Part shown: piece by piece, positions 14,120-17,100 of the stretch
How the letters are laid out: each line of letters opens with the position of its first letter
Position numbering within the stretch: the stretch's first letter is position 1
Source of the DNA: Nitrospirae bacterium MYbin3
GTDB lineage: Bacteria; Nitrospirota; Thermodesulfovibrionia; Thermodesulfovibrionales; Dissulfurispiraceae
Length of the DNA: 64,000 bases
Direction: 5' to 3'
Assembly (NCBI GenBank): GCA_002753335.1
Contig: PEAD01000015.1
Span: 1-64,000 of the forward strand
Made by a program: the position numbers

Positions 14120-17100
14120 TTTATTCGGACAAAAAATCCCACTCTACTACGATTACTGACTGATAAGAATTACGACGCGGCGATTTTTTGCCTGGTTTGC
14201 AGATATCGGCTGGCTGTTGTTGTCTGTGTTGGGCATAAGCGGTCTGGTATCAGCCAATCCAAGCACCTGTATCTTTTCTTTGGGAAATCCCTGTTCAATA
14301 AGAAATCGTGCAACAGCGCTGGCGCGTACGGCCGAAAGTTCCCAGTTGGATGGGAATTGGGCCGACTGAATCGGTATGTTATCCGTATGACCTTCGATAG
14401 TAATCCGGTATTTCATATTCATTATGGTCGGTGCAACACTTTTCAGTATCGCAAATGCGTTCTCCATAAGATCCGCTTTCCCTAAATCGAAAAAAACGCC
14501 TTCTTTGAGTTGTATAGCAACCCCGTTAGGCCTCACCTCAAGGGCCATCGCATCCTGCCGGCTGACTATAACGGTCTCGAGCTCCTTCTTTATGTCCTGA
14601 AGATCCTTTTCCTTTTGCTGCAACCCCTTAATGTCGGTGCCGAGGGCCTTGCCTAGAGACTGGGCTATGGTCTTATACTGTTCGACATCCACGGTCGAGA
14701 CTGCAGCAATAAGAACGAAAAAACACATAAGCTGAATGACCATATCGGCAAATGCGAGCTGCCATTGTTCAGCCTCTTCTTCCCTTCTTCTCTGGAACAG
14801 CTTTTTCCTTGTCATCGGATTAAAAAAATCATCAGCTTCTTTTTTTAATGGAAGACCATTTGCGGGGTGGCAGATATGCCTTTAATTTGTCCATGACGAT
14901 AGGGCCGGGTGCCTTGTCCTTCATAAAAAGTATCCCGTCCCTTATTACCGACATAAGAATAATGCGCTCCTCTATCCTGCCCTCGACCTTTACAGCGATA
15001 GGAAGAAAAACCATATATGCTAAAAGAATGCCGTAGAGTGTGGCGGTAAGCGCAACAGCCATTGCAGGGCCGACCTGCTTTATATCGCCGCCCATGGTCT
15101 GCATCATGCTTATGAGCCCGATAAGAGTACCGATAAGTCCGAAGGCCGGAGAAAATTTGGCCATAGACCTAAAAACACCGGTGGATGCCATTTCCTGCTC
15201 ATACGTTTGATTTATCCTCGTATCCAATATTTCACGAAGCTCCTCTTTGGAATAACCGTCAATTAGCATCTGAACAGCATCTTTTAAAAAAATATTCTCG
15301 ATGCCGGGAAGCTCTTTTTCGAGATTAACCCTGCCTTTTGTTGTAAGCTGTTCCGAAATGTAAACCAGTTCGTGTATATAATTTCCTATAGGCAGATCTT
15401 CCCGTTTCATTACAACAAAAAAAGCGCTGAATACCTGCATCACCTGCTTAAGTGGATAACATATAAAAGTGGCCGCGATAGTGCCCCCGAGAACAATTGC
15501 TATGCCGGAGAAATTATAAAAAACACTCAGGCTTGTGGTGGCCTCTGAAGTCGCATAGGACAATATGCCGATTCCAAAAATAATACCGAGTATCGTAGCT
15601 ATATTCAAGGCTTAGCACCTTTAAGGGATTTTATAAGCTGGATAAGCTCTTTTTCGATATCACCAGCTTCTATTTCATCAATCTCCTGCCGCGCAGCAAC
15701 CTGATCTTTCACAATACCAGCTATCTTTGATGAAAGGTTGGCGTAAATCTTGGACTTCGCCTCATCGCCTGCTATAAAAGTCAAGATCCCCATTTTATAG
15801 TGGCCGAGCCTTGAGAACGCCTCCTGAAGCGTGTTGCCGTCAACGTAGATAATATCATCCACTTCGGTCAGGTCTTCGATATTCAGGGAACGCCTCTTAA
15901 CCTTCTTAAAGAAACCCTCGCCGACCTCCTGAGCCCAGTCAGCAGCAGCCCGTTTGTGTATGAAGAAAATATTTTCCGGAATCTCACCGGTTCCGATTTT
16001 CTTGTAAATAAGCTCGGGGGTTGTATTTACGATATTTGCAAACTCATGTATGTCTATAAACTCTCTTTCCTGTGCAGATGTTCCGAGAGTTTGGCGGAAT
16101 TCTTCATAAAATTGCTTTGCCTTTTTCAAAAACGTTTTGGAATCCGGCATCTTTAAATATTTAACAACTTCTGATGCGCTCTTCCTCTCTATAACATCAA
16201 TTATGTTTATACTTGCCAATTTCTTAACAATCGTATCAATTTCAAGCTGTGGAATCGAGAGTATATCCCTTATCCTTTGAGAAACTTCGTGATAAGGCAC
16301 ACCCGAATCATCAGTGCCTTGTTTGGTTTGGGATAGATACATAAACTCGATTATGCTGCAGACACTCATAAACACATTGCCTACCGGCTGGTCTGAAACT
16401 TTTTTGCTTGTCCTGTGGAGCCTGTCAATAGCTGATTTGGTTATCGCCTGTATGATTTTGGGGCTTTCGCGAAGATGCTGCTCCAAAACCTCTTTGTCAA
16501 TTATTATAATCTCGCAAAAATCATCCGCCACAGCAGACGCTGTGCGGGGCTCACCGCTCAAAACACCCATCTCCCCAAAAACATGACCCGGTTTGATATG
16601 CGCAAGAGTGACCTGATTGTTGTTGACAGTTTTATAAATAGTAACCGAACCGCTCTTTACCAAAAAAGCGGTCTCACCCGTCTGCCCCTCTTTGCAGATG
16701 AGCTGTCCCTTATAAAAAGTTTTGACGTTGTAAGTACCCATAAATCTGCTCTCGCCCCCTTTCAATGCATTGAAAACTATCATAAAACATAGAAACCATG
16801 ACTTGCAATAAAATACATCCTACAAAAGTTGGCTTATTATTCGCTGTTCGCTATTATCAGCCCCGCGTATGATACTAAGTGGCTGGTAACCGGAATTCCG
16901 TTTGTTAGCTGCTCCGTTGTTTTTTTTGAAAAAGAGCAAACTTTTTCGAAAAATGTTACATAGTTGTCCTGATAGGTGGATATGAGCTGTTCGTATATCT
17001 CGCGCGCTGTATTAAATTCCCTGCCTTCAGGCAGTTTTATGCCCAGTCCTTTCAACAGCTCCACCGATTTTCTAAGTTCTATAACTCCATGACGCACATG

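What a model noticed while it worked through the whole genome (the two positions that open the first line are those of the whole stretch)
14153..16783. CRP-FliG fusion protein with its own MotA/MotB stator
g01959 joins a cyclic-nucleotide-binding CRP-like N-terminus to a FliG C-terminal (torque) domain and is the first gene of an operon with a dedicated motA/motB pair (g01958, g01957), away from the flagellar genes and in addition to the normal fliG and two other stator sets. The three-gene cassette is conserved across phyla. Inference: a soluble, cNMP-controlled FliG mimic that engages this stator, as a clutch or as a non-flagellar rotor.
Evidence so far: Pfam cNMP_binding 21-105 and FliG_C 305-388. 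The C-terminal model (pLDDT 91, call 111) has FliG chains as its top 16 Foldseek ranks, rmsd 1.3-3.6 A, TM 0.68-0.76 for the first 15 listed, E 1e-3 or weaker; a sequence search also hits FliG. Of 35 loci from GTDB genomes, mostly Desulfovibrionales, 30 have motA directly downstream at 56-97% identity; of the other 5, three end at a contig edge, one lacks the FliG domain and one has other neighbours. The cNMP pocket (FGEM...PRTASA) and MotB Asp are intact; FliG R281 aligns with a conserved Lys and MotA E98 is nearly invariant, while MotA R90 is lost in this clade. 5 of 5 carriers tested also have a normal FliG.
(Added by a program. Inside this text positions count along the whole contig: contig position 1 is position 1 of the stretch shown here. 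"Call 12" and the like, gene names such as g00115 and contig names such as C1 are that model's own, and its searches are not shown. The text may have been shortened before it was handed on; [...] marks where a part breaks off. The agent that wrote the report below was given it as the finding of a first reader that could run no searches.)

Follow-up and report, generated by a model that had tools for sequence, protein, structure and literature searches.

The report
cAMP-type sensor with private flagellar stator
A three-gene unit found in distant bacterial groups pairs a cyclic-nucleotide sensor that ends in a copy of the flagellar rotor's torque domain with its own altered ion-motor (MotA/MotB), which likely forms an undescribed signalling switch built from flagellar motor parts rather than a propeller drive.

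Summary
Confirmed and extended. The first gene (likely 378 aa, ATG 16741) has four domains: cNMP-binding, CRP-type winged helix, a second HTH-like domain and the last repeat of FliG (Z 13.2, rmsd 1.8 A). motA and motB follow. All 15 full-length metagenome homologues with downstream sequence are followed by motA. New here: a 20-23% identical form in Burkholderiaceae has the same three genes in 7 of 7 loci but with an unrelated MotC/D-like stator (one origin rejected, p-AU 0.003). Forms lacking the FliG domain are scattered over the tree (at least 5 label changes), and the 3 such loci seen lack motA. The window's stator clade has lost the whole positive rotor-binding face while keeping the ion channel. 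So the FliG domain most likely docks on its own stator (inferred, about 0.7). The output is unresolved: stator-held regulator 0.4, flagellar clutch 0.28, gated ion leak 0.12. Burkholderia copies have sigma-28-like promoters and the B. cenocepacia orthologue (BCAM0776) is expressed as protein. No description found in 10 literature searches. The scan noted this family before on other DNA (e1-4847341, e1-4847343). No binding or function is shown.

The parts
16779..16808 (-). sigma-70-like promoter (TTGCAA-18-TATGAT), kept at the same place in the congeneric locus L001
   Evidence: 9 of 12 matches, not above shuffles on its own (52 of 100 reach it); positional conservation in L001 only
15605..16741 (-). 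four-domain gene: cNMP - winged helix - HTH-like - FliG_C (378 aa)
   Evidence: model pLDDT 90.1, pTM 0.52
16394..16741 (-). cNMP-binding domain with C-helix, residues 1-116; pocket FGE57...PR66TASA intact
   Evidence: Z 17.4 to Bd1971 cNMP domain 6hq5
16142..16381 (-). winged-helix domain, residues about 121-200, CRP/FNR-like fold; recognition helix PQLEID is acidic
   Evidence: (Z 8.9 FNR 5cvr, 8.7 3e97; tied with other winged helices)
15923..16066 (-). second HTH-like domain, residues 226-273 (excisionase/HTH_17-like), with near-invariant Lys248
   Evidence: weak HTH_17 hits in 3 of 114 members, best E 3.5e-4; K/R248 in 132 of 143; no PDB sequence hit
15878..15925 (-). basic linker, residues 273-288 (mean net charge about +4 in both clades)
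15611..15874 (-). FliG C-terminal torque domain only, residues 290-377 (T. maritima 235-321)
   Evidence: family HMM scores the C repeat best in 19 of 19 ordinary FliG proteins (median about 53 bits against 17 for the middle repeat)
14832..15608 (-). motA of a dedicated, strongly conserved PomA/MotP-like clade with altered rotor-binding face
14153..14815 (-). motB with the channel Asp (WQLAFAD), plug helix and OmpA-type peptidoglycan-binding domain
14034..14117 (+). tRNA-Leu(CAG), convergent with motB; boundary of the unit, not part of it
   Evidence: no att-like duplicate

Best explanation
The unit encodes a CRP-like cyclic-nucleotide receptor ending in a FliG torque domain plus its own MotA/MotB ion motor, and it likely works as a signalling switch in which the receptor docks on that private stator instead of the stator driving the flagellum. 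Shown: the domains, the gene order, the altered contact residues, the intact channel residues. Inferred step 1 (about 0.7): the FliG domain binds the cytoplasmic cleft of the co-encoded MotA, and the two surfaces have drifted together into a private pair. Inferred step 2: cAMP or cGMP binding moves the C-helix, as in CRP, and changes docking. Inferred step 3 (weakest): docking, which in flagellar motors is tied to unplugging, wall anchoring and ion flow, holds the regulator at the membrane or resets it, so that ion-motive force or envelope contact together with cNMP controls what the two HTH-type domains do, most likely gene regulation at the motile-to-sessile switch.
For: Gene order: 15 of 15 full-length metagenome homologues with downstream room have motA next, 56-69% identical for the intact ones (several are near-duplicates). 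Burkholderiaceae: 7 of 7 fetched loci (of 8 records) have the same three genes with a stator only 23-26% identical to the window's MotA; the same 8 records are the top 8 hits for that MotA; the two stator groups are separate clades on long stems, one origin rejected at p-AU 0.0028. Co-loss: 22 of 201 sequences have cNMP-wHTH-HTH2 without FliG_C; 18 short forms put on a quick tree need 10 label changes, at least 5 forced by strong branches; the 3 short-form loci seen have no motA (one clade, so one event). The N-terminal three domains therefore persist without the motor. Private interface: of the PomA rotor-binding residues listed in bioRxiv 2022.11.25.517900 (passages) the negative face is kept (E96 116 of 120, D114 120 of 120) and the positive face is lost (R88 1, K89 6, R232 0 of 120), with new basic residues nearby (positions 86 and 91: 107 and 108 of 120; C-terminal PPR-x-W); on the FliG side the R297 position is Asp in 112 of 143 and never basic. 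Channel kept: MotB Asp in all 15 cassette MotBs printed; PomA T158/T185/T186 equivalents 120/116/120 of 120. The genome has 6 class III cyclase domains; G262's copy lies directly behind a cyclase gene.
Against: No binding, ligand or DNA data. The winged-helix recognition helix lacks CRP's base-reading Arg (Arg at that place in 7 of 143) and is acidic in about 72%; the second HTH domain is net acidic; no shared upstream palindrome or CRP box was found. G262 (99% complete) keeps the full-length protein with no clade MotA in the genome, so the private stator is not always needed. About a fifth of members (28 of 143) have lost Glu57 or Arg66 of the cNMP pocket. In Burkholderiaceae the unit looks like a late flagellar gene set, which fits a role at the flagellar motor equally well. 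Some short forms may be frameshifts or assembly fragments.
Confidence: 0.4

Rival explanations
1. cNMP-controlled flagellar clutch: the cassette stator is an auxiliary flagellar stator, and the FliG mimic parks it (or decoys the ordinary stators) until the cyclic-nucleotide level changes. It would work like MotI, FlgZ or YcgR but by rotor mimicry.
For: All 7 Burkholderiaceae loci have a sigma-28-like site at -98 to -114 (10-12 of 13 matches; 0-7 of 100 shuffles reach it; related genomes). A chemoreceptor gene is adjacent in 4 of 7. BCAM0777/0778 rise with flagellar genes in an RND-4 mutant (PMC3079749, passage); BCAM0776 falls (log2 -4.0) with motAB, cheY, flgKLMN and fliS in an ntrC mutant (PMC5491218 S3 Table rows). 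All three carrier genomes I could search have ordinary stators; G000 and G301 show a normal FliG. FliG R281 and D288/D289 charges are partly kept (125, 81 and 97 of 143). G262 has the protein with ordinary stators only.
Against: The window-type MotA lacks R88, K89 and R232, and the R88 charge was reported indispensable for motility in the PotAB chimera; the Burkholderia type lacks the D114 acid. No sigma-28 site at a shared position in 13 window-type upstream regions. The ntrC effect may be read-through from the NtrC-dependent BCAM0774-0775 upstream. In an rpfF mutant proteome BCAM0776 moves opposite to FliG (0.2 against 3.9, PMC3502180 Table S2 rows). A clutch needs no HTH domains, and would not explain FliG-less forms.
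Confidence: 0.28
2. cNMP-gated ion leak: docking of the FliG mimic unplugs the private stator so that it passes Na+ or H+ without a load, lowering or tuning the ion-motive force on a cyclic-nucleotide signal.
For: Rotor contact is proposed to trigger plug release. Channel Asp, plug and the Na+-type threonines are conserved. MotA is much more conserved (55-78% beyond the genus) than its partner (30-58%).
Against: Does not account for the two HTH-type domains or the FliG-less forms; a standing leak is costly; no transporter or stress gene is a constant neighbour.
Confidence: 0.12
3. True non-flagellar rotor: many copies assemble, on DNA or on each other, into a ring or rack that the stator drives, moving or twisting DNA.
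For: A torque domain and two HTH-type domains sit in one chain; the stator has a wall anchor; Lys248 and a basic linker are conserved.
Against: Only the last FliG repeat is present (chain range 235-321); no membrane anchor, no ring-stacking repeats, no constant fourth gene; acidic recognition helix.
Confidence: 0.06
4. The C-terminal domain is a FliG-like scaffold that no longer touches MotA, and the genes are only co-regulated.
For: Low FliG identity (about 22%); K264 and R297 equivalents lost; torque-helix acids lost in Burkholderia; G262 lacks the stator.
Against: The same order with two unrelated stator types, translational coupling, and absence of motA beside FliG-less forms.
Confidence: 0.1

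Closest known systems
FliG with MotAB/PomAB (flagellar rotor-stator pair; PDB 1qc7, 1lkv, 8bri)
   Same: FliG_C fold with torque helix; flagellar-type stator with channel Asp, plug and OmpA domain; E96 and D114 face kept in the window's clade.
   Different: Only the last FliG repeat, fused to a cNMP regulator; no FliF/FliM-binding parts; positive face of MotA lost; R297 position acidic; encoded away from flagellar genes beside a normal fliG system.
YcgR, FlgZ (review passages, PMC13432727) and MotI/DgrA (recalled): c-di-GMP brakes and clutches
   Same: Second-messenger receptor inferred to act on a stator.
   Different: PilZ and c-di-GMP there; cNMP domain and FliG mimicry here; those act on the cell's flagellar stator and bring no stator of their own.
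CRP/FNR family; Bdellovibrio Bd2879 (PDB 9sfa; PMC12750041 passages)
   Same: cNMP domain, C-helix and winged helix; Bd2879 also has two HTH domains and is the top Foldseek hit (E 6e-12, TMq 0.38).
   Different: No CRP/FNR NCBIfam cut-off reached; base-reading residues absent; extra FliG_C domain; Bd2879 has a zinc-finger tail and no reported stator link in the passages seen.
Zorya ZorAB and other non-flagellar 5:2 ion motors (PMC12505986 passages; mechanism recalled)
   Same: A MotAB-like motor linked to soluble partners rather than to propulsion.
   Different: Those use other stator clades and no FliG domain; this stator falls among flagellar-type stators.
Pseudomonas MotCD signalling through SadC when disengaged (recalled, not tested)
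   Same: Precedent for a stator acting as a signalling hub; the Burkholderia cassette MotA is 41% identical to P. aeruginosa MotC.
   Different: MotCD is a working flagellar stator encoded among chemotaxis genes with no FliG-mimic partner.

Membership tests
FliG (C-ring protein) | C-terminal torque domain fold | tested here: met
   Z 13.2, rmsd 1.8 A, 87 residues; C repeat best in 19 of 19 FliGs
FliG (C-ring protein) | N (FliF-binding) and M (EHPQ, FliM-binding) repeats | tested here: not met
   residues 1-289 are cNMP and HTH folds; weak FliG_N hits fall on the same C-terminal stretch
FliG (C-ring protein) | charged set K264, R281, D288, D289, R297 (E. coli numbers recalled; mapped through T. 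maritima alignment) | tested here: not met
   kept in 32, 125, 81, 97 and 0 of 143
CRP/FNR transcription factors | cNMP domain with C-helix followed by winged helix | tested here: met
CRP/FNR transcription factors | base-reading recognition helix (S/T-R-E-x-x-x-R, recalled) | tested here: not met
   consensus S-Q-x-E-I-D in the window's clade; Arg in 7 of 143; S/P-R present in most Burkholderia copies
CRP/FNR transcription factors | sequence-specific DNA binding and ligand binding | not testable with these tools
   no assay; no shared operator found
Flagellar-type stator MotAB/PomAB | four-TM A subunit, B subunit with Asp, plug and peptidoglycan-binding domain | tested here: met
   nests among flagellar stators
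Flagellar-type stator MotAB/PomAB | rotor-binding charges on both faces (PomA R88, K89, E96, D114) | tested here: not met
   1, 6, 116 and 120 of 120
Na+-type stator (PomA/MotP) | T158, T185, T186 | tested here: inconclusive
   clade 120/116/120 of 120, but the window's copy has Ala at the T185 place
PilZ brakes/clutches (YcgR, FlgZ, MotI) | PilZ domain binding c-di-GMP | tested here: not met
   Pfam lists only cNMP_binding and FliG_C at E<=1; the model is accounted for by other folds
PilZ brakes/clutches (YcgR, FlgZ, MotI) | ligand-dependent action on the flagellar motor | not testable with these tools
   needs motility and localisation experiments

The most novel reading that the evidence does not exclude
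A free-standing flagellar stator has been turned, twice with different stator types, into a sensor or actuator for a transcription regulator: the regulator grips the turning MotA ring through a borrowed FliG torque domain, so ion flow or wall anchoring, gated by cAMP/cGMP, directly controls a DNA-binding protein. This would be the first FliG torque domain working outside a C-ring.
Probability: 0.3. Interest if true: 0.92.

Novelty: categorically new. Interest (0 to 1): 0.75.

Why it matters
The FliG torque domain is known as the rim of the flagellar rotor, and known second-messenger control of the motor uses c-di-GMP and PilZ proteins. A soluble one-domain FliG partner with a co-evolved private stator would give a stable, minimal stator-rotor pair for structure work on torque generation and plug opening, a possible direct cAMP/cGMP input to an ion motor, and an explanation for 'extra' motAB copies in Desulfovibrionales and Burkholderiaceae. 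It is testable now in culturable, harmless hosts (Paraburkholderia, Caballeronia, Pseudodesulfovibrio, Maridesulfovibrio). If the clutch reading is right the class drops to 'new variant of a known kind'.

Tried and rejected
Complex prediction of three MotA copies (50-258) with residues 226-378 gave no verdict (score 0.26, mark 0.32). No RNA run was listed for the stretch. GTDB contig scan with the single protein gave 1 locus, so Desulfovibrionales genomes could not be searched for flagellar genes; co-occurrence with flagella rests on 3 Nitrospirota genomes and on named carriers recalled as motile. No constant fourth gene among 124 flanking ORFs. No shared palindrome, CRP box or sigma-54 site upstream. 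Second HTH domain: no PDB sequence hit and barely tested by the fold search, which covered model residues 1-103. ESM Atlas feature search of residues 118-378 gave no usable hit. The careful tree of the N-terminal part did not finish; the quick tree on 112 of 161 rows was used. Recent horizontal transfer or tRNA-targeted island: not supported. FliG middle-repeat origin of the domain: rejected. MgtE_N: only weak hits (E 0.03-0.04) under stronger FliG_C hits. Literature: 10 full-text searches found no description of the fusion or cassette; the library lacks most subscription papers; supplements of PMC3079749 could not be read and bioRxiv supplements were not seen.

Full report
Observation. The window holds three coupled minus-strand genes between the cobalamin gene cbiD and a convergent tRNA-Leu. 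The first ORF is listed as 392 aa, but the database protein and its homologues start at ATG 16741 (378 aa), and the upstream ATG sits within a sigma-70-like -10 box kept in the congeneric locus L001. Residue numbers below use 378 aa. Pfam gives cNMP_binding and a marginal FliG_C hit, MotA_ExbB, and MotB_plug plus OmpA. The genome also has a normal fliG beside fliF on C13, two other MotA and two other MotB genes.

Anatomy. An AlphaFold model from 143 homologues (pLDDT 90.1, pTM 0.52) shows four domains with uncertain mutual orientation. Residues 1-116 are a cNMP domain with C-helix; about 121-200 a winged helix matching FNR/CRP and other winged helices at Z 8-9; 226-273 a small HTH with weak HTH_17 hits in 3 of 114 members; then a basic linker and, at 290-377, the FliG C-terminal domain (Z 13.2, rmsd 1.8 A to 1lkv residues 235-321). 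A family HMM of that domain scores the C repeat best in 19 of 19 ordinary FliG proteins. The parts of FliG that bind FliF and FliM and stack into a ring are absent, so this is not a C-ring subunit. The top whole-chain Foldseek hit is Bd2879, a cNMP protein with two HTH domains (PMC12750041, passages seen), a loose architectural parallel.

Distribution and gene order. The C-terminal 258 aa find 128 clusters at 50% identity. Named members are mostly Desulfovibrionales, with Nitrospirae and a gammaproteobacterium. Of 22 metagenome loci, 15 are full-length with downstream sequence and all 15 have motA next (several near-duplicates, one motA in two pieces); 3 are short forms without FliG_C and without motA; 2 end at a contig edge; 1 is fragmentary; 1 is an unrelated cNMP protein. 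No fourth gene is constant. In the window's order the protein is in 3 of 317 genomes; G262 has it behind an adenylate/guanylate cyclase gene with no clade MotA in a 99% complete genome. A distant form (20-23% identity) lies on 8 Burkholderiaceae secondary replicons; the 7 fetched all read cNMP-wHTH-HTH-FliG_C, motA, motB. Atlas clusters of 76-144 members with cNMP and FliG_C, mostly Pseudomonadota, show that this branch is sizeable.

Two stators, one partner. The Burkholderia stator is MotC/D-like (41% to P. aeruginosa MotC; 23-26% to the window's MotA). In a 32-row tree the two cassette stator groups are separate, each 100/100 on a long stem (0.95 and 1.12), and forcing them together is rejected (p-AU 0.0028; small reference set, long branches). 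The fusion therefore kept a stator beside it across a stator replacement. Conversely 22 of 201 sequences lack FliG_C but keep the three N-terminal domains; 18 short forms on a quick tree need 10 changes, at least 5 forced. Some may be artefacts, but the clade next to the window's protein (L028, L029, L031) ends in true stops and has no motA. This ties FliG_C to the stator and shows that the rest of the protein has a use without it.

Interface. Using PomA residues from bioRxiv 2022.11.25.517900 (passages seen) and the alignment, the 120 best MotA homologues keep the negative face (E96 116, D114 120) and lose the positive face (R88 1, K89 6, R232 0), while gaining basic residues at 86 and 91 and a conserved PPR-x-W tail. 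These 120 were chosen by similarity; their gene context is known only for the loci above. On the FliG side R281 is K/R in 125 of 143, D288/D289 acidic in 81 and 97, K264 basic in 32, and R297 is Asp in 112 and never basic (E. coli numbers recalled). The Burkholderia pair is altered differently (Lys at R88, Asn/Ser at D114, torque-helix acids lost). I read this as private, co-drifting surfaces; it is inference. Channel residues are intact; the clade has the three Na+-type threonines, while the window's copy has Ala at T185, as proton-type stators do.

Regulation. All 7 Burkholderiaceae loci carry a sigma-28-like site at -98 to -114; 13 window-type upstream regions show none at a shared place. 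The B. cenocepacia genes are BCAM0776 (cAMP-binding), 0777 (MotA), 0778 (MotB), 0779 (chemoreceptor), transcribed at RPKM 47-185 with BCAM0776 seen in the proteome (PMC3759415, supplement rows); the order matches L079, and that 3.2 Mb replicon has a single MotB-plug gene, so the identification across strains is inferred but firm. They rise with flagellar genes in an RND-4 mutant (PMC3079749, passage) and fall with late flagellar genes in an ntrC mutant (PMC5491218, passages and S3 Table rows), though the upstream BCAM0774-0775 are themselves NtrC-dependent. In an rpfF mutant proteome BCAM0776 moves against FliG (PMC3502180, passages and Table S2 rows; direction read from the column head). So the unit is tied to motility control but is not a plain flagellar part.

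Mechanism. The core, FliG_C docking on its own MotA under cNMP control, I put at about 0.7. For the output I favour a stator-held regulator (0.4) because the stator has lost the face needed for normal FliG and because the HTH-bearing part survives on its own. Against it, the winged-helix recognition helix is acidic and lacks CRP's Arg (7 of 143), the second HTH is net acidic apart from Lys248, and no operator was found. The clutch reading (0.28) gains from the Burkholderia data and G262. A gated leak (0.12), mere co-regulation (0.1) and a real rotor (0.06) follow.

Novelty. Ten full-text searches found no description (listed under Tried and rejected). The mBio stator survey (PMC12505986, passages seen) has no mention of 'cyclic' or 'Desulfo'. 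PMC5462819 (passages) notes three motAB pairs in B. terrae without comment on this unit; PMC13432727 (passages) lists only PilZ brakes and EpsE; PMC13768756 (one passage) and PMC7970998 (supplement, no hit) added nothing. The scan itself noted this family on other DNA; one of those notes is marked 'part of it fell', without detail. Those notes are leads, not support. The Burkholderia branch, the two-stator result, the FliG-less forms and the expression data were worked out here. The parts are known; the arrangement fits no described system, hence 'categorically new', on genomic evidence only.

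Noticed in passing
window 14832-15608, MotA residue 189: The window's MotA (and its nearest relative P0200) has Ala where 116 of 120 clade members have the Na+-type Thr185 equivalent: a possible Na+ to H+ switch in this lineage.
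   Followed up: partly
L050:6031-9165 (G262): Full-length homologue directly behind a membrane adenylate/guanylate cyclase, after a chemoreceptor and an ion-channel/PilZ-like gene, with no dedicated stator in the genome; this genome has about 30 cNMP-domain hits.
   Followed up: partly
proteins P0012 and P0074 (532 aa): Variants with an N-terminal response-regulator receiver domain added in front of the cNMP domain.
   Followed up: no
proteins P0019/P0042, P0018/P0108, P0058/P0070: Pairs share the same longest-contig length, suggesting two paralogues of the fusion in one genome, perhaps serving one stator.
   Followed up: no
G000:C36:16179-19023: Ordinary motA-motB, a PilZ-like gene and a second, E. 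coli-type motA without an adjacent motB; a long (449 aa) MotB-plug ORF lies on C54.
   Followed up: partly
L035, L038, L041 upstream of the cassette: A divergently oriented bactofilin gene in three related loci; a GNAT acetyltransferase follows motB in L034, L035 and L038.
   Followed up: no
L079, L080, L082 downstream of motB; L077 upstream: A methyl-accepting chemotaxis gene is adjacent; the downstream copies have their own GCCGATAA box.
   Followed up: partly
window 12223-13974: glnS is split into two ORFs (13102-13974 and 12223-13068) whereas the congeneric locus L001 has one 583-aa ORF: a frameshift or assembly error.
   Followed up: no
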